A DNA stretch of 64,000 bases from a phage: sequence record PV467749.1; one strand, written 5' to 3'. The notes under the pieces were generated by a model that saw only the letters and a program-made list of their open reading frames with translations, made no database searches and had not been told where the DNA came from. The position numbers and the translations under genes were made by a program. Below are positions 30,588 to 50,825 of the stretch, piece by piece. Numbering within the stretch: position 1 is the first letter of the stretch; each line of letters starts with the position of its first letter.

Positions 30588-31724
30588 ATGTTACCTTTTG
30601 CAAGAATGGTTAAGTACGGGAACGTAGCACCAGATAAACTAAAAATACGTGATATTGTTGCAGGTGCTAATTCATTATTACTAATAACCGAGGATAATGA
30701 ATTATGGGTGCGTGGTAATAATGCGTATGGCAAATTAGGTATAGGAACTGATACTATAGTGAATGTAACCGAGTGGACTAAAGTTAGAGATGATGTTAAG
30801 TTTGCTTGTGCTAGTAATTTAGTATGCGTTGTATTAACTGTAGATAATAAAATTTTCTACTGTGGTGATCAATGGTTTGAATCTGGTGGTTCGACAAGTT
30901 CTAAAGTTGTTACATGGAAAGATGTTACGACACAATTTAGTGCAGTGAATCTAAGCACAGTTCGTGAAATGAAAATAACTTATTATTGTGTAGGATTACT
31001 TACAAATGATAATAGATTATATGCTAAAGGATATGATAATAACCAATCATTTGGTGGTTCAACAAGCAAAGTTAATGCTGTATTAGTTGCGTCAAATGTT
31101 TCAAAATTCTACACTTCTCTATCTGGTACTATATATTCTAGTACTACTGGTGGTTACTACCGCTGTGGTATAAGCAATACTGGAGCATTGGGTACTAGCA
31201 CAAATTTAACTTCTTATAATTTGTACTCTGCTCCCGAATTTGCATCCGAATGTGCAGTTGGTATGTCAACATTAAACTCTGGTATATTATATTATGATAC
31301 TAATGGTATCACTAGATATGTTATAGCAGGTCAAAATAGAAATTATCAACTAGGTAATTCTTCTTCAAATACCACAAACGTATATTCGTATACAGAATTA
31401 ACCGGATATAGAGGCAGGTTTAGGGATTTGTGGAGTGATATGAATAACTCTGTTCTTTCTTTTGCTATAAGCACAGATGGCAATACTTTATATTATGCTG
31501 GTACTAACAATACACTATCTTCTGGTGATCCTGGTGTTGAATATTCATCTGCATTTAAAGAAGTACCACACGGGTTTAATGATATAACAAAGGTGGTATC
31601 GTTAGCCTATCTATCTATAGTGCAAGATTCAACTGGATGGTATTATTCTGGAAATGCAACTACGTTATATGGTTTGCCATCGAGTGATGAATTTATACCA
31701 TTACCATTACCAACAATAATTTAA
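30588..31724 (+). CDS. RCC1-repeat-like beta-propeller protein, family C member 1
   Basis: Starts MLPFARMVKYGN behind AAGGAGG RBS; repeated Gly-rich motifs such as GNNAYGKLGIG and GYDNNQSFGG. Confidence 0.65.
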   Translation: MLPFARMVKYGNVAPDKLKIRDIVAGANSLLLITEDNELWVRGNNAYGKLGIGTDTIVNVTEWTKVRDDVKFACASNLVCVVLTVDNKIFYCGDQWFESGGSTSSKVVTWKDVTTQFSAVNLSTVREMKITYYCVGLLTNDNRLYAKGYDNNQSFGGSTSKVNAVLVASNVSKFYTSLSGTIYSSTTGGYYRCGISNTGALGTSTNLTSYNLYSAPEFASECAVGMSTLNSGILYYDTNGITRYVIAGQNRNYQLGNSSSNTTNVYSYTELTGYRGRFRDLWSDMNNSVLSFAISTDGNTLYYAGTNNTLSSGDPGVEYSSAFKEVPHGFNDITKVVSLAYLSIVQDSTGWYYSGNATTLYGLPSSDEFIPLPLPTII

Positions 31725-31730
31725 ATACAG

Positions 31731-31787
31731 GCCAGTACTTGATACTGGCTTTTTTTGATTAAATATAGTATAATGAATAAGGGAGGG
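31731..31787 (+). promoter_or_regulatory. Family C intergenic cassette: hairpin, T-run, TATAAT box, RBS (representative)
   Basis: GCCAGTACttgaTACTGGC, T7, TTGATTAAATATAGTATAATGAATAAAGGAGGGAAT then ATG; near-identical copies before most family C genes (e.g. 32948, 34129, 35326, 36518, 41306, 42547, 43800, 45049, 47724). Confidence 0.6.
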
Positions 31788-31790
31788 AAT

Positions 31791-32939
31791 ATGTTACCTT
31801 TTGTAAGAATGTTTGATTATGGAAATGAAGCTCCTACCAACTCTGGTCGTTATAAAATATATTCCAGTGATTCTATGTATCTTCATGATACTTATACTGA
31901 CAAGTTGTATGCATCTTCTGCGACGAATTGGGGTACTGGTACAGGTGTAGCATCGAGTAAATTTATTCTTTGTGCGGAGAATGTTAAACGAGTTCTATTG
32001 GAAGATAACAGTAGTGATTGTCAATTGTATGAAGAGAAAGGTACTGGAAAAGTTTTTATCACTGGTAACACGAAGGCATTCACTGGTGTAACTGATAGAA
32101 AAACTTTGTGGACGGACTGTACTACGTGGATAACATCAAGTGGTATTAATGTTTCTGATATAAAATACATGAGTAGTTTTTATGATATGAAGGTGAATTT
32201 GATAACAAACGATGGTACATTGTATTGTTGTGGAGCTAACAATATATCGAACATATCATCATTTGGTGATGGCACAAACATTAATTCTTTTAACACATTC
32301 AAAAGAGTAGATACTATAACTTCGGTTAAAAAGGCTGTTGGTAACATTTATTTGCGAGAAGATAATACTTTATGGGGTTGTGGTTTTAACTATTACTACC
32401 AGTTGGGCACGGGTAATCAAACTTCTATTACTGGGGTGACGATGATTTCTTCGGATGTTATAGATTTTAATGTAAGTTATCAGAGTACATTTTTTATCAA
32501 ATCGGATAATAATTTGTACGCTTGTGGTAAACAGTTCGGTGCACAATATGGGAACGAATTTGGTACAGGTGGTACTTCCTCTTCTACTGATATACAATAT
32601 AAAACTCCGACATTATTGAGTTCAGGAGTTTATACTCTATATACTTGTGTTGGTAACATGGCATCACATATTGTCAAAGCAGATGAAGTTCTATATGCTT
32701 CTGGATCGAATAGGTTTGGGCAATTAGGTGTTGGTAATAATAATAATCAGTACTCCTATACTCCTTCATATACTTCGTTTAATACTTCGTGTAATTTGGT
32801 ACGCACTCCATCTGGTTCACTTATACTTACTGACACTTCGAAGTTATATTATTCGGGTGCTTCATTTGTAGTAATGGGTGGTGGTGCTGGACAGAACGTT
32901 CTTAATTATACCGAAGTCGATATGTCATTTGTGCAGTAA
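31791..32939 (+). CDS. RCC1-repeat-like protein, family C member 2
   Basis: MLPFVRMFDYGN; GSNRFGQLGVGNN; conserved upstream cassette. Confidence 0.65.
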   Translation: MLPFVRMFDYGNEAPTNSGRYKIYSSDSMYLHDTYTDKLYASSATNWGTGTGVASSKFILCAENVKRVLLEDNSSDCQLYEEKGTGKVFITGNTKAFTGVTDRKTLWTDCTTWITSSGINVSDIKYMSSFYDMKVNLITNDGTLYCCGANNISNISSFGDGTNINSFNTFKRVDTITSVKKAVGNIYLREDNTLWGCGFNYYYQLGTGNQTSITGVTMISSDVIDFNVSYQSTFFIKSDNNLYACGKQFGAQYGNEFGTGGTSSSTDIQYKTPTLLSSGVYTLYTCVGNMASHIVKADEVLYASGSNRFGQLGVGNNNNQYSYTPSYTSFNTSCNLVRTPSGSLILTDTSKLYYSGASFVVMGGGAGQNVLNYTEVDMSFVQ

Positions 32940-33012
32940 ATTAATATGCCAGTACTTGAGTACTGGCTTTTCTTTTTGTATTAAATATAGTATAATGAAT
33001 AAGGGAGGAAAT

Positions 33013-48939: not shown

Positions 48940-48945
48940 AATAAT

Positions 48946-48965
48946 GCCAGTACTCAAGTACTGGC
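48946..48965. terminator. Bidirectional hairpin between convergent genes
   Basis: GCCAGTACTcaAGTACTGGC between plus gene ending 48939 and minus gene ending 48973. Confidence 0.5.
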
Positions 48966-48972
48966 ATTTCTT

Positions 48973-49623
48973 TTACATATTATATAATGTGAATGCAGTC
49001 ACTTTACCAGTTGTTGTTAGTTCATTATAAAGATACTCCAAGATTCTCGCACACTCTAAGTATATCTCGATATCATCATGAATAAGTGAGTACTGAAATA
49101 GCTGTTCTTCAGGTAATTTGTATTGACTTCCTTTTAATGAATTGAGAATATCTTTCACATCATCAAGTACTGGGTAAAGTACGAAATCTTCATCATATTT
49201 TGAAGCAATAAATTCAAATCCACCACCATCAGTACTAGATATACCAATCAGTACTTTATCAATCAAGTTAATGTTTATATAACGGTTGTGATTTGGGTGA
49301 ATTGAAATCTCAAACATACGAGTACTGTTACAATCAACATCAATATACAAATATACATCATTGAATTTATAAGTTAAACAACCGTACTCAAGAAAATCAG
49401 AACAAATAATTGATGAGTTTTTTCTTGTCTCTGCGTAATGCATCTTGATATTCTTTTCACGCATAAGTAATTCGAACTTTGCACTAAACTTGCCACCAGC
49501 AAGATAGTTAGTATTAGGACGTTTGTAACTTGCAACTGGTCGGTGGGATGATGTAAAGTATTTTTTTGTGAATCGTTTCTGTTTAGTGAAATATTCTTGA
49601 TAGAACTTACTTCTTTTATTCAT
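48973..49623 (-). CDS. Hypothetical protein inserted between family C members
   Basis: Track ORF 216 aa on the opposite strand; shares the bidirectional hairpin at 48946-48965. Confidence 0.55.
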   Translation of the reverse strand: MNKRSKFYQEYFTKQKRFTKKYFTSSHRPVASYKRPNTNYLAGGKFSAKFELLMREKNIKMHYAETRKNSSIICSDFLEYGCLTYKFNDVYLYIDVDCNSTRMFEISIHPNHNRYININLIDKVLIGISSTDGGGFEFIASKYDEDFVLYPVLDDVKDILNSLKGSQYKLPEEQLFQYSLIHDDIEIYLECARILEYLYNELTTTGKVTAFTLYNM

Positions 49624-49700
49624 GAGTACCTCAATTAAATCGCTGTAAAATTGTACATTATAAAATGATTAAATAAAGTATAACACAAGGAGATTTTATC

Positions 49701-50825
49701 ATGTTACCTTTCGTATTGTTATTTGATTATGGGAACGAAAAACAAGAAAGTTCTTATGATGTTAGTGTATATGGAAACAATAACTACATTTTAAATAAAC
49801 AAACTGGAAACCTTTTTGCATCCGGTGCTGCGGCATTCATGGGTGATAACACAGTTAAGTATTATATTACCCAAATAGAATCAAATGTTCATAGCTGTGA
49901 GATAGGTTTCCTATCATCATGGATAATTAAGAAGGACAAAACTGTTTTCATTTTAGGAAACAAAAGCAGTATAGGATTAACTGGTTCGACAACATCATGG
50001 TTCGAAATTACAAATTTATTTTCTGCTGTTCCTGAAATATGGGACAACCTATTTGAATGTAAAGTTCAATTGGGATATAACTGTATACGTGTTATGACAC
50101 CACTAGGATCAATCTATGCGATTGGTACAAACACTTATGGTGCATTGGGTACTGGTACTACATCCTCATCAACTTCGTTCGTTAAAAGTGGTGCTGTGGA
50201 TGCTGTACGCATGGAATCAACAGAACGTTCAGTGTTCTATCAAAACAGTTCTGGACAATGGTTTGGATGTGGTGATAACACATATGGTATACTAGGTCTA
50301 GGAACTACCGCGAGTCGTGTAAACTCATACACCGCACCAGTATGGACTAATGCAGAAGCTGTTAGCTTCTCTAACCGTGGGATCATATACAGCCTCAATG
50401 GTACTCTATACTCATGTGGTGACAAAGTTAATGGTCAGCTAGGGGATGGATATACACAAAGCATAGACGCTGCCAGGAGCACACCATACACCATAGGAAC
50501 CGCATTCCAAATTGGTAAGGCAATAACATCAGCTACACAAGCATCAGCCAACGTATTCATTGGTAAAGATAATAAGTTCTATGGTACTGGTAGTATTGCT
50601 GCTGGTATAAATGGTAGTACTAGTGCTGCATTAAGTAAAGTTACTGCGTTATCAGCAGCACTACCACCTGACATTACATACAATGATATTATAACATTTA
50701 ATACAGGGACCGTAACTTTTATTCAAGCAAAAGGACAACTATATTATGTTGGTAGAAGAACTTACATAGATAATAGTTCAGACGTTACCACACAGTTCAG
50801 TGTAATTGGTGGCTTAGATAATTAA
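49701..50825 (+). CDS. RCC1-repeat-like protein, family C member 16
   Basis: MLPFVLLFDYGN; GDKVNGQLGDGY, GDNTYGILGLGT; different upstream region. Confidence 0.65.
   Translation: MLPFVLLFDYGNEKQESSYDVSVYGNNNYILNKQTGNLFASGAAAFMGDNTVKYYITQIESNVHSCEIGFLSSWIIKKDKTVFILGNKSSIGLTGSTTSWFEITNLFSAVPEIWDNLFECKVQLGYNCIRVMTPLGSIYAIGTNTYGALGTGTTSSSTSFVKSGAVDAVRMESTERSVFYQNSSGQWFGCGDNTYGILGLGTTASRVNSYTAPVWTNAEAVSFSNRGIIYSLNGTLYSCGDKVNGQLGDGYTQSIDAARSTPYTIGTAFQIGKAITSATQASANVFIGKDNKFYGTGSIAAGINGSTSAALSKVTALSAALPPDITYNDIITFNTGTVTFIQAKGQLYYVGRRTYIDNSSDVTTQFSVIGGLDN

What the first reader, a model, noticed from the sequence alone, without database searches (positions are those of the whole stretch)
30588..50825. 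Sixteen tandem RCC1-repeat-like paralogs, most in their own terminator-promoter-RBS cassette
Sixteen consecutive plus-strand genes of ~360-450 aa share the same N-terminus and repeated Gly-rich motifs of the G-x-N-x-x-G-x-L-G-x-G type (e.g. GSNRFGQLGVGNN, GGQNNGQLGNGI, GDNTYGILGLGT), which is the RCC1 / beta-propeller repeat pattern. The ~70-bp intergenic cassettes are nearly identical before most members while the coding bodies have diverged strongly. That combination suggests expansion by recombination between cassettes followed by diversifying evolution, as seen for receptor-binding or host-interaction proteins. This is the most striking system in the window and I do not recognise it as a described family.
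Basis: partly seen in the sequence, partly recalled or inferred. Interest (0 to 1): 0.9.

Follow-up and report, generated by a model that had tools for sequence, protein, structure and literature searches.

The report
Tagged RCC1 propeller array, jumbo coliphage
A jumbo E. coli phage carries sixteen tandem genes for seven-bladed RCC1-type propeller proteins, each behind its own terminator and late-promoter cassette; all share a 12-residue N-terminal tag that in related phages also heads unrelated lectin-like virion proteins, so the array is an already-noted but functionally unsolved, fast-reshuffled set of probable virion-borne binding modules.

Summary
There are sixteen plus-strand paralogs at 30588-50825: fifteen intact and one frameshifted. 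They are 22-35% identical to each other. Fourteen transcription units each carry a hairpin terminator, a TAAATA-N3-TATAAT motif and a strong ribosome-binding site. Pfam matches 15 of 16, and AlphaFold plus Foldseek confirm seven-bladed RCC1-like propellers.

The window belongs to an Asteriusvirus (121Q/PBECO4/phAPEC6 group). The array is not new. GenBank annotates it, it falls in PHROG 4219, and two papers mention it. Virion mass spectrometry detected 8 paralogs in phAPEC6.

What I add:
- The cassette promoter matches the late promoters of tail genes, not the sigma-70 early promoters nearby.
- Arrays in close relatives hold 7-17 genes. The genes are reassorted one by one, including recent single-cassette transfer between divergent phages.
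- Orthologs show purifying selection (dN/dS 0.14-0.40), not gene-wide diversifying selection.
- The N-terminus MLPFxRMxxYGN is independent of the fold. It is unstructured in the model, and in CBB, GAP32 and metagenomes it heads Kelch, ConA-like and glycine-rich virion proteins at the syntenic locus.

Best reading: late-expressed binding modules brought into the virion through a shared docking tag, probably accessory adhesins. A rival reading is a capsid-targeting tag like that of the phage T4 internal proteins. The function has not been tested.

The parts
30588..31724 (+). R01, RCC1-like propeller, tag MLPFARMVKYGN
   Evidence: It is 96% identical to G17_01 and has no ortholog in WPEC3.
31791..32939 (+). 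R02, RCC1-like propeller
   Evidence: Orthologs are present in all four compared phages at 82-96% identity.
33013..34122 (+). R03, RCC1-like propeller
   Evidence: It is 100% identical to WPEC3_02.
34191..35318 (+). R04, RCC1-like propeller
   Evidence: Its best match is EJP2_14 at 63%.
35389..36510 (+). R05, RCC1-like propeller; a recently exchanged cassette
   Evidence: It is 98% identical to EJP2_05 with dS 0.017, whereas the EJP2 flanks are only about 80% identical to the window.
36582..37763 (+). R06, RCC1-like propeller
37838..41299 (+). R07-R08-R09 operon: three RCC1-like genes (37838-38968, 38979-40181, 40190-41299) with gaps of 10 and 8 nt. It is driven by a type-B cassette (GTAAATACATTATAAT at 37801-37816).
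   Evidence: The R08-R09 pair stays adjacent in G17, WPEC3 and SD-2_S15.
41370..42539 (+). R10, RCC1-like propeller
42613..43792 (+). R11, frameshifted member. The tag ORF runs 42613-42792 (59 codons plus stop); the body is in another frame from 42716.
   Evidence: WPEC3 has the identical truncation.
43864..45042 (+). R12, RCC1-like propeller
45113..46288 (+). R13, RCC1-like propeller
46368..47717 (+). R14, divergent 449-aa member with an insertion that could not be modelled well (about residues 294-398)
   Evidence: No Pfam hit; weak match to PHROG 4219. AlphaFold2 pLDDT is 62, and the top Foldseek hits are RCC1-like domains.
47788..48939 (+). R15, RCC1-like propeller; the member that was modelled
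   Evidence: pLDDT 90.1, pTM 0.87. Residues 1-20 are unstructured with low confidence. Best PDB matches are UVR8, RPGR, HERC2 and RCC1.
49701..50825 (+). R16, RCC1-like propeller, variant tag MLPFVLLFDYGN, variant promoter TTAAATAAAGTATAAC (49669-49684)
   Evidence: It is absent from G17.
34123..34190 (+). Representative type-A intergenic cassette: terminator hairpin GCCAGTACTTGATACTGGC plus a T-run (34129-34155), late-type promoter motif TTAAATATAGTATAAT (34158-34173), and Shine-Dalgarno AAGGAGG. The motif copies start at 30556, 31759, 32981, 34158, 35356, 36549, 37801, 41337, 42580, 43831, 45081, 46335, 47756 and 49669.
   Evidence: It resembles the upstream regions of the PBECO4 tail-tube and tail-fibre genes.
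34191..34226 (+). Representative N-terminal tag (first 12 codons, MLPFVRMFDYGN). It is present at the start of all 16 members.
   Evidence: The same tag heads Kelch, ConA-like (LamG) and Gly-rich proteins in CBB, GAP32, 121Q and metagenomes.
48973..49623 (-). Unrelated 216-aa ORF (phrog_34359, unknown function) lying inside the array; it is not a member.
   Evidence: It occupies the same position in WPEC3.

Best explanation
This is the Asteriusvirus version of a hypervariable, late-expressed locus found across RaK2-like jumbo phages. Each gene encodes a small protein with three parts: a 12-residue N-terminal tag (M-L-P-F-x-R-[MLI]-x-x-Y-G-N), usually a proline-containing linker, and an interchangeable all-beta binding domain. 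In this phage the binding domain is always a seven-bladed RCC1-type propeller.

Shown:
- the fold;
- the layout of one terminator, one promoter and one ribosome-binding site per gene;
- reassortment of genes one at a time between phages;
- purifying selection on the bodies;
- independence of the tag from the fold.

Shown by others, for homologs only: the proteins are present in purified virions.

Inferred:
- The genes are transcribed late, individually and strongly, together with the structural genes.
- The tag docks the proteins onto a common virion site, so many paralogs compete for the same positions and each ends up at low copy number.
- The propellers face outwards and bind host-envelope ligands. 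They would act as accessory adhesins that tune adsorption and host range.
- The identical cassettes together with the tag codons supply the homology that lets whole genes be swapped, gained and lost.
For: Fold: Pfam matches 15 of 16. AlphaFold2 gives pLDDT 90, and Foldseek matches RCC1-like propellers.

Late promoter class:
- The motif [GT]TAAATA-N3-TATAA[TC] occurs 14 times, once per transcription unit and nowhere else in the window.
- PBECO4 structural genes carry ATAAATA. Its tail-tube gene 20 has a terminator followed by cTAAATAAAGTATAATg, and its tail-fibre gene has aTAAATATAGTATAta.
- The CBB paper reports ATAAATA as the putative late consensus.
- Neighbouring small genes instead use TTGACA-N17-TATAAT. 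Sigma-70-like sites are not enriched in the array: 88 against 101 +/- 10 in shuffles.

Virion association:
- In phAPEC6, virion mass spectrometry lists gp003, 005, 006, 007, 009, 010, 549 and 551. I verified that all six listed genes that lie within gp001-010 carry the tag. Eight of 11-13 tagged genes detected, against 1.2-1.5 expected, gives hypergeometric P of about 2e-6 to 1e-5.
- GAP32 gp001 was found by mass spectrometry.
- JP4_577 and JP4_581 were each detected by one peptide.
- CBB_536, 537, 551 and 552 were found by mass spectrometry. By gene order these map to tagged genes gp443, gp442, gp428 and gp427.

The tag is a separate module:
- It is unstructured in the model.
- It heads Kelch propellers and Laminin_G_3 (ConA-like) domains at scores above the Pfam cut-offs. 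It also heads a Gly-rich protein (phrog_4474) and a phrog_1062-like body.
- Synonymous codons vary at the conserved residues.
- 84% of 119 tagged proteins have a proline within residues 14-19.

Precedent for an outward-facing binding role:
- RCC1 propellers are fused to a phage tail-collar fibre domain (P0035, PF12571) and sit at the C-termini of the Pseudomonas phage Littlefix and PollyC tail fibres.
- The ConA-like body is a virion structural protein in rV5-like phages.

Turnover. The core tail tube is 97-100% identical across the same phages.
Against: - No experiment places these proteins on the outside of the virion or shows that they bind anything.
- Mass-spectrometry signals are weak: 1-5 peptides in phAPEC6 and 1 peptide in JP4. 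Carry-over of abundant late proteins is therefore not excluded.
- Twelve residues is far shorter than any known receptor-binding-protein anchor domain, and no docking partner has been identified.
- The proteins have no trimerisation or fibre module.
- Gene-wide dN/dS of 0.14-0.40 shows none of the positive selection often seen in receptor-binding tips. Site-specific selection was not tested.
- Late timing rests on promoter resemblance only.
- Part of the tag census was collected with a DNA pattern that fixes MLPF and several other positions. Conservation at those positions in that set is partly by construction. The CBB, GAP32 and phAPEC6 loci were read independently of the pattern.
Confidence: 0.45

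Rival explanations
1. The tag is a capsid-targeting sequence. In this reading the proteins are loaded into the prohead and ejected with the DNA, like the phage T4 internal proteins IPI-III. They would act inside the cell as a panel of protein-binding inhibitors or decoys against host defences.
For: [quoted passage not shown]
- The present locus has a short conserved N-terminal peptide, variable bodies, a late-type promoter and a hypervariable gene content.
- The proteins are found in virions.
- phAPEC6 has an inner body whose components are unassigned.
- RCC1 and Kelch domains are classic intracellular protein-binding folds. From my own knowledge, BLIP-II is an RCC1-like enzyme inhibitor.
Against: - The tag has no sequence similarity to the T4 capsid-targeting sequence.
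- There is no conserved Glu and no L/I-x-E protease site in or just after the tag.
- Peptide counts are low, unlike the roughly 1000 internal-protein copies in a T4 head.
- Rigid 40-kDa propellers and ConA-like jelly rolls are unusual ejection cargo.
- The same folds occur at the outer ends of tail fibres in other phages.
Confidence: 0.25
2. The proteins are non-structural late (or middle) cytoplasmic proteins that bind host or phage proteins. Their detection in virion preparations would then be carry-over, and the tag would serve another purpose, such as recognition by a chaperone or protease, or localisation in the cell.
For: - Mass-spectrometry coverage is low: 3-17% in phAPEC6 and single peptides in JP4.
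- A strong ribosome-binding site and an individual promoter per gene predict high expression, which favours contamination.
Against: - Tagged proteins of three different folds are detected in four independent virion proteomes (phAPEC6, JP4, GAP32, CBB).
- In phAPEC6 the enrichment is about 6-fold over expectation.
- The ConA-like body is a virion protein even in rV5-like phages, where it lacks the tag.
Confidence: 0.12
3. The proteins are DNA-condensation or inner-body proteins, as the GenBank names and the phAPEC6 paper suggest by analogy with eukaryotic RCC1.
For: - The RCC1 fold.
- An inner-body rod in phAPEC6 with unassigned components, and the authors' own suggestion.
Against: - The name reflects the fold only.
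- Nothing in the sequences argues for DNA or chromatin binding.
- The same tag and locus carry Kelch and ConA-like proteins in CBB, which has no RCC1 gene.
- Copy number ranges from 0 to 17 among phages with similar capsids.
- The 34 or more divergent lineages fit ligand diversity better than a structural DNA spool.
Confidence: 0.04
4. The array is neutral genome filler: tandem duplicates kept only because a head-full packaging phage with an enlarged capsid tolerates extra DNA (the 'ratchet' idea of Hua et al.).
For: - Tandem duplication has been proposed as a route to jumbo genomes.
- Pseudogenes occur: R11 here, and fragments in SD-2_S15, 121Q and G17.
Against: - dN/dS is 0.14-0.40 across orthologs.
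- The tag is invariant at the peptide level despite synonymous change.
- Every unit keeps its terminator, promoter and ribosome-binding site.
- The proteins are expressed, since they are seen by mass spectrometry.
Confidence: 0.04

Closest known systems
RCC1-like paralog arrays of 121Q, PBECO4, phAPEC6, G17 and other Asteriusviruses (PHROG 4219; GenBank 'regulator of chromosome condensation' or 'DNA condensation protein')
   Same: This is the same family at the same locus. Individual genes are up to 100% identical. Multi-copy presence was already noted in PMC5259590 and PMC7247149, and several members were detected in virions.
   Different: This window has its own combination of 16 members. 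The published notes stop at annotation and a DNA-condensation guess. They do not describe the cassette anatomy, the late-promoter class, the gene-by-gene reassortment or the shared tag.
Kelch and Laminin_G_3 'structural protein' cluster of Pectobacterium phage CBB (CBB_548-554 and 536/537), and GAP32 gp001/gp002
   Same: The locus is syntenic: it lies next to an array of small membrane proteins and an ATPase similar to T4 NrdC.11. The N-terminal tag is the same, the promoters are late-like, and the proteins were detected in virions by mass spectrometry.
   Different: The bodies are six-bladed Kelch propellers and ConA-like jelly rolls instead of RCC1 propellers. There are fewer genes, mostly translationally coupled rather than one cassette per gene.
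T-even phage internal-protein (IPI-III) loci with the capsid-targeting sequence
   Same: A short conserved N-terminal peptide on otherwise unrelated proteins, a polymorphic locus, late expression and virion incorporation (PMC3012670).
   Different: There is no sequence similarity to the T4 capsid-targeting sequence and no conserved protease site. The proteins here are 4-5 times larger, all-beta and apparently low in copy number. An internal location has not been shown.
Modular receptor-binding proteins with conserved N-terminal anchors and exchangeable distal domains (for example the multi-tailspike sets of RaK2/K64-1, and T2-type gp38 tip adhesins; from my own knowledge)
   Same: A conserved N-terminal attachment element plus a variable binding domain, several alternatives encoded side by side, and exchange by recombination at the conserved part.
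   Different: Known anchors are folded domains of roughly 60-150 residues on trimeric fibres or spikes. Here the conserved part is a 12-residue peptide on a monomeric-looking propeller. The RaK2 tailspike array is neither homologous nor syntenic to the window.
Eukaryotic RCC1-like domains (RCC1, UVR8, RPGR, HERC2 RLDs)
   Same: A seven-bladed propeller with Gly-rich repeat signatures; TM-score about 0.75.
   Different: Sequence identity is 15-19%. There is no evidence for Ran exchange-factor activity or chromatin binding, and the context is a phage late gene.

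Membership tests
RCC1-like domain (Pfam PF00415 / PF13540 / PF25390) | Significant match to the RCC1 repeat or RLD profiles | tested here: met
   15 of 16 members match (E from 1e-7 to 1e-33 for PF25390). RCC1 or RCC1_2 scores exceed the curated cut-offs in most members. PF25390 scores stay below its 150-bit cut-off.
RCC1-like domain (Pfam PF00415 / PF13540 / PF25390) | Seven-bladed beta-propeller fold | tested here: met
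   The R15 model has pLDDT 90 and about 27 strands. Foldseek matches UVR8, RPGR, HERC2 and RCC1 at TM 0.65-0.77. R14 is only tentative, with pLDDT 62.
RCC1-like domain (Pfam PF00415 / PF13540 / PF25390) | Guanine-nucleotide exchange on Ran, or chromatin binding (the function of RCC1 itself) | not testable with these tools
   Bacteria have no Ran. The 'chromosome condensation' annotation is inherited from the fold name only.
PHROG 4219 (phage 'regulator of chromosome condensation') | Full-length profile match | tested here: met
   R15 E = 1e-101, R08 E = 1e-103, R14 E = 3e-16.
T4-type internal proteins carrying a capsid-targeting sequence | Short conserved N-terminal peptide shared by otherwise unrelated proteins of one phage | tested here: met
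   MLPFxRMxxYGN is found on RCC1, Kelch, ConA-like (LamG) and Gly-rich bodies.
T4-type internal proteins carrying a capsid-targeting sequence | Prohead-protease site (L/I-x-E) at the end of the targeting peptide | tested here: not met
   No conserved Glu in positions 1-20. Position 9 is K, D, E, N, Q or T.
T4-type internal proteins carrying a capsid-targeting sequence | Location inside the capsid and ejection into the host | not testable with these tools
   Published mass spectrometry shows only that the proteins are present in virion preparations.
Phage receptor-binding proteins (tail fibres and spikes) | Folded N-terminal anchor domain and a trimeric fibre or beta-helix shaft | tested here: not met
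   The propeller starts at about residue 20, and there is no coiled-coil, beta-helix or collar domain.
Phage receptor-binding proteins (tail fibres and spikes) | Virion-exposed, binds a host surface receptor, determines host range | not testable with these tools
   There is only indirect precedent: RCC1 propellers fused to tail-fibre domains in other phages.
MLPF-tagged virion proteins of RaK2-like jumbo phages (a grouping proposed here) | N-terminus M-L-P-F-x-[RIL]-[MLIV]-x-x-[YF]-[GAS]-[ND], encoded at the locus beside the small membrane-protein array | tested here: met
   All 16 members carry it. The flanking membrane-protein array and ATPase are shared with CBB and GAP32.

The most novel reading that the evidence does not exclude
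The 12-residue MLPFxRMxxYGN peptide may be a portable virion-incorporation signal: a 'plug' that lets any small binding domain (RCC1, Kelch, ConA-like, Gly-rich) be mounted on a common site of these jumbo virions. With 7-17 paralogs competing for the same sites, each particle would display a different mixture of binders. That would be a combinatorial, bet-hedging adsorption surface whose repertoire is re-dealt between phages by recombination at the cassettes. I did not find this tag described in the papers that discuss these genes.
Probability: 0.35. Interest if true: 0.75.

Novelty: new variant of a known kind. Interest (0 to 1): 0.55.

Why it matters
The RCC1 array on its own is an annotated curiosity of Asteriusviruses. 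Reading it as one instance of a tagged, fold-swapping virion-protein locus turns it into a testable system.

- A 12-residue peptide that suffices for virion incorporation would explain how jumbo phages add and exchange accessory binders without rebuilding their tail fibres.
- It might account for the unassigned 'hairy' appendages or the broad host ranges of these phages.
- It would be a handy tool for display or packaging, as the capsid-targeting sequence became for phage T4.
- It shows that the widespread 'DNA condensation protein' annotation for these genes has no support beyond the fold name.

Tried and rejected
1. Synteny or homology with the RaK2 tailspike array (genes 525-534). No window ORF matches the last 40 kb of RaK2. 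Rejected.

2. The tag as the 'velcro' closing strand of the propeller. Rejected, because it is unstructured in the model and also occurs on non-propeller folds.

3. The cassette as a sigma-70 promoter. There is no -35 element at a workable spacing, and sigma-70-like sites are not enriched. Rejected in favour of the late class.

4. Conservation of the first 36 nt as an RNA or translation signal only. Rejected, because synonymous positions vary while the residues stay fixed.

5. Gene-wide positive selection. Not found.

6. A census of the tag in the 5.8-billion-protein database using a tag profile. A 40-residue profile gave only 4 candidates. This was uninformative. DNA-pattern scans of IMG/VR and metagenomes were used instead.

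7. Literature hits for 'RCC1' with phage tail-fibre terms were false positives: Roscoff Culture Collection strain numbers and rcc locus tags.

8. The CMSTMSU array was not used. The record is marked unverified and is riddled with broken ORFs.

9. Repoila et al. 1994, on the T-even internal-protein loci, could not be read. The comparison with T4 therefore rests on the review PMC3012670.

Full report
**What is there**

Between 30588 and 50825 the plus strand carries sixteen genes of 358-449 codons. Re-anchoring each gene on its MLPF start gives the coordinates in the parts list. Fifteen genes are intact. The eleventh has its tag ORF at 42613, which stops after 59 codons, while the propeller body continues in another frame from 42716. 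Phage WPEC3 has exactly the same truncation, so this is an inherited lesion and not a read error in this window.

Genes 7, 8 and 9 are separated by only 10 and 8 nt and form one operon. An unrelated 216-aa minus-strand ORF (48973-49623, phrog_34359) sits between members 15 and 16.

**Cassette versus body**

Every other junction is a cassette of 66-79 nt. It consists of a GC-rich hairpin built on CCAGTACT...AGTACTGG followed by a T-run, then TTAAATATAGTATAATGAATAAAGGAGG, then ATG.
- The 28-mer occurs 12 times with at most 3 mismatches, against 0 expected.
- Terminator-like hairpins number 27 against 7.7 +/- 2.9 in shuffles. They fold at -10 to -16 kcal/mol.
- The looser motif [GT]TAAATA-N3-TATAA[TC] occurs exactly 14 times in the 64-kb window. 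All copies are on the plus strand, one per transcription unit of the array.

The proteins, by contrast, are 22-35% identical pairwise, with R01/R05 at 51% and R10/R11/R13 at 32-44%.

**Fold**

Pfam RCC1, RCC1_2 or WD40_RLD profiles match 15 of 16 members. I modelled member 15 with AlphaFold2 from a 35-sequence alignment. The model has pLDDT 90.1 and pTM 0.87 and is an all-beta propeller. Residues 1-20 are the only low-confidence, unstructured part. Foldseek places the model with UVR8, RPGR, the HERC2 RLDs and RCC1 (TM about 0.75, E about 1e-19).

Member 14 has no Pfam hit. Its model is weaker (pLDDT 62, with about 100 residues that could not be modelled well), but it too matches only RCC1-like domains at the top of the list.

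**Where the window comes from, and what was already known**

The region matches 37 jumbo coliphage and Salmonella-phage genomes of the genus Asteriusvirus (121Q, PBECO4, phAPEC6, G17, WPEC3 and others) at 88-99% identity, but only in patches. In those records the genes are annotated 'regulator of chromosome condensation', 'DNA condensation protein', 'GTPase regulator' and similar. They fall in PHROG 4219.
- The CBB paper (PMC5259590) noted that GAP32 gp001, an RCC1/BLIP-II-type protein found in virions by mass spectrometry, has multiple homologs in 121Q and PBECO4.
- The phAPEC6 paper (PMC7247149) counted eleven RCC1-like proteins and speculated on a role in DNA condensation. Its virion proteome lists gp003, 005, 006, 007, 009, 010, 549 and 551.

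So the array is not an undescribed family. What is undescribed is what it does.

**Timing**

The small minus-strand genes at 5.5-24 kb carry textbook TTGACA-N17-TATAAT promoters. The cassettes have no -35 element, and sigma-70-like sites are not enriched in the array.

I fetched structural-gene regions of PBECO4 for comparison. Tail sheath, tail tube 21, several virion proteins and gp004 carry ATAAATA. Tail-tube gene 20 has a terminator followed by cTAAATAAAGTATAATg. The tail-fibre gene has aTAAATATAGTATAta. These are near-copies of the cassette motif. ATAAATA is the putative late consensus reported for CBB and GAP32, which resembles the T4 late promoter.

EJP2 uses a second cassette version (GTAAATACATTATAAT). 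The same version precedes window gene 7, whose ortholog in EJP2 is 99% identical. I infer late, gene-by-gene transcription together with the structural genes. This is an inference from sequence, not a measurement.

**Evolutionary dynamics**

The array lies between the same flanks in all four compared phages, but its size differs: G17 has 12 genes, EJP2 14, WPEC3 16-17, and Salmonella phage SD-2_S15 7-9, several of them broken.
- The 65 tagged genes from five phages fall into 34 clusters at 70% identity, and their order is shuffled.
- Window genes find their 96-100% partners in different phages: R01 only in G17, R05 only in EJP2, and R03, R14, R15 and R16 in WPEC3.
- Against WPEC3 the flanks are 98-99% identical over 100% of their length, but only 73% of the array is shared.
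- R05 differs from its EJP2 ortholog by dS 0.017, whereas other window-EJP2 orthologs show dS 0.5-1.2 and the flanks are about 80% identical. This points to a recent transfer of a single cassette.
- The tail-tube protein is 97-100% identical across the same phages.
- Gene-wide dN/dS is 0.14-0.40 for the pairs with enough substitutions to be informative.

The picture is recombinational reassortment, with gain and loss of old, constrained lineages at cassette boundaries. It is not rapid in-place diversification.

**The tag**

The first twelve codons are conserved in all 16 members, including genes 8 and 9, which have no cassette.

In GAP32 the RCC1 gene gp001 starts MLPFSRIIQYGN. Its neighbour gp002 starts MLPFARIFRYGD but has a ConA-like body (phrog_6011 'virion structural protein', weak Laminin_G_3 match).

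In CBB the syntenic locus lies next to the same kind of small membrane-protein array and the ATPase similar to T4 NrdC.11 that flank the window array. It holds seven genes that all start MLPF[SPA][RI].... Three are Kelch propellers and four are Laminin_G_3-type (ConA-like) proteins. The Kelch matches and two of the Laminin_G_3 matches score above the Pfam cut-offs. Two more tagged 'virion structural proteins' lie about 6 kb away. By gene order, the four proteins that the CBB paper reports by mass spectrometry in this cluster (CBB_536, 537, 551, 552) are all tagged.

Exact-pattern scans found the tag only in this phage group in IMG/VR: 121Q, Serratia phage BF, GAP32, CBB and one 371-kb uncultivated genome. 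In metagenomes it appears on 17 contig stretches, heading RCC1, Kelch, ConA-like (LamG), glycine-rich (phrog_4474) and phrog_1062-like bodies.

At the conserved residues the codons vary (Pro CCT/CCA/CCG, Arg AGA/AGG, Tyr TAT/TAC, Gly GGA/GGG/GGT), so selection acts on the peptide. Of 119 distinct tagged proteins, 84% have a proline within residues 14-19, which suggests a tag-linker-domain layout. One caveat applies: the pattern scans fix MLPF and some other positions by design. The CBB, GAP32 and phAPEC6 loci were read gene by gene, independently of the pattern.

**Tag and virion**

In phAPEC6, 8 of the 11-13 array genes are in the 62-protein virion proteome, against 1.2-1.5 expected. The hypergeometric P is about 2e-6 to 1e-5. 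JP4 lists two members, each with a single peptide at low abundance. GAP32 and CBB add tagged RCC1, Kelch and ConA-like proteins. The signals are weak, at 1-5 peptides. This is comparable to the peptide counts and coverage of the tail-fibre proteins in the same table.

**Mechanism**

The best-supported reading is that each gene makes a late protein whose free N-terminal peptide docks it into the virion and whose propeller is a binding module. I favour an exposed, adhesin-like role for three reasons:
- RCC1 propellers are fused to tail-collar or T7-type tail-fibre domains in other phages.
- The ConA-like body is a virion protein in rV5-like phages.
- All body types are typical ligand-binding folds.

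The main rival is a T4-style capsid-targeting sequence on ejected effector proteins. The review PMC3012670 describes the same logic for the T-even internal proteins. There is, however, no similarity to the T4 sequence, no conserved protease site, and the abundance is low.

The DNA-condensation, carry-over and neutral-filler readings are weaker, for the reasons given under rivals.

**Verdict**

The feature is real and is correctly identified as a set of RCC1-type propellers. The array is already annotated and already mentioned in the literature. The new elements are the late-promoter cassette anatomy, the gene-by-gene reassortment under purifying selection, and the fold-independent N-terminal tag that links it to the Kelch and ConA-like virion-protein loci of related jumbo phages. 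The function remains untested.

Noticed in passing
window 25876-30476 (-): About 18 tandem paralogous ORFs of 60-78 aa (pattern M[NH]KE[HF]Y..KL...YY..L.LIYRY) lie immediately upstream of the array on the opposite strand. They are interrupted by a 219-aa ORF at 27818-28477 (phrog_29152). WPEC3, G17 and SD-2_S15 have the same array. [quoted passage not shown]
   Followed up: partly
window 50862-53301 (-) and 57021-58056 (-): There are seven, and then three more, tandem paralogous multi-pass membrane proteins of 104-123 aa directly downstream of the array. A similar membrane-protein array flanks the tagged-protein locus in CBB and GAP32.
   Followed up: partly
whole window, densest at 4-28 kb: AGTACT occurs 274 times against 21.5 expected. 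CAGTACTG occurs 61 times against 0.7 expected. These are the most over-represented hexamers in the window. The motif sits in early-promoter spacers, in the stems of nearly all terminators, and elsewhere. The cause is unknown.
   Followed up: partly
window 5500-24000 (-): Many of the small early-type genes have their own consensus TTGACA-N17-TATAAT promoter. In many cases a conserved 5'-UTR hairpin follows (GGGGAGAA...TTCTCCCC and variants).
   Followed up: no
window 48973-49623 (-): A 216-aa ORF of unknown function (phrog_34359, no Pfam hit) is embedded in the array between members 15 and 16, at the same place as in WPEC3. In G17 a 219-aa minus-strand ORF follows the last member, and member 16 is absent.
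   Followed up: partly
window 61861-62259 (-): This 132-aa protein is the homolog of JP4_541, which was detected in the JP4 virion proteome (4 peptides, 29% coverage). A small virion protein is therefore encoded near the array.
   Followed up: no
L011 6146-6880 (121Q); L001 23072-23809 (G17): Inside the RCC1 arrays of 121Q and G17 there is one tagged gene of 245 aa with a completely different, glycine-rich body (TQFTVPAGVTEISVCVISPGGQRGAGGG..., phrog_4474, no Pfam hit). The window has no copy.
   Followed up: partly
window 53369-54142 (-): This 257-aa ATPase is conserved in more than 1300 phage records, including T4-type phages, where it is often mis-annotated as 'thioredoxin'. It is only 59% identical to its PBECO4 counterpart although 100% identical to WPEC3. 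The region flanking the array is therefore itself quite divergent within the genus.
   Followed up: no
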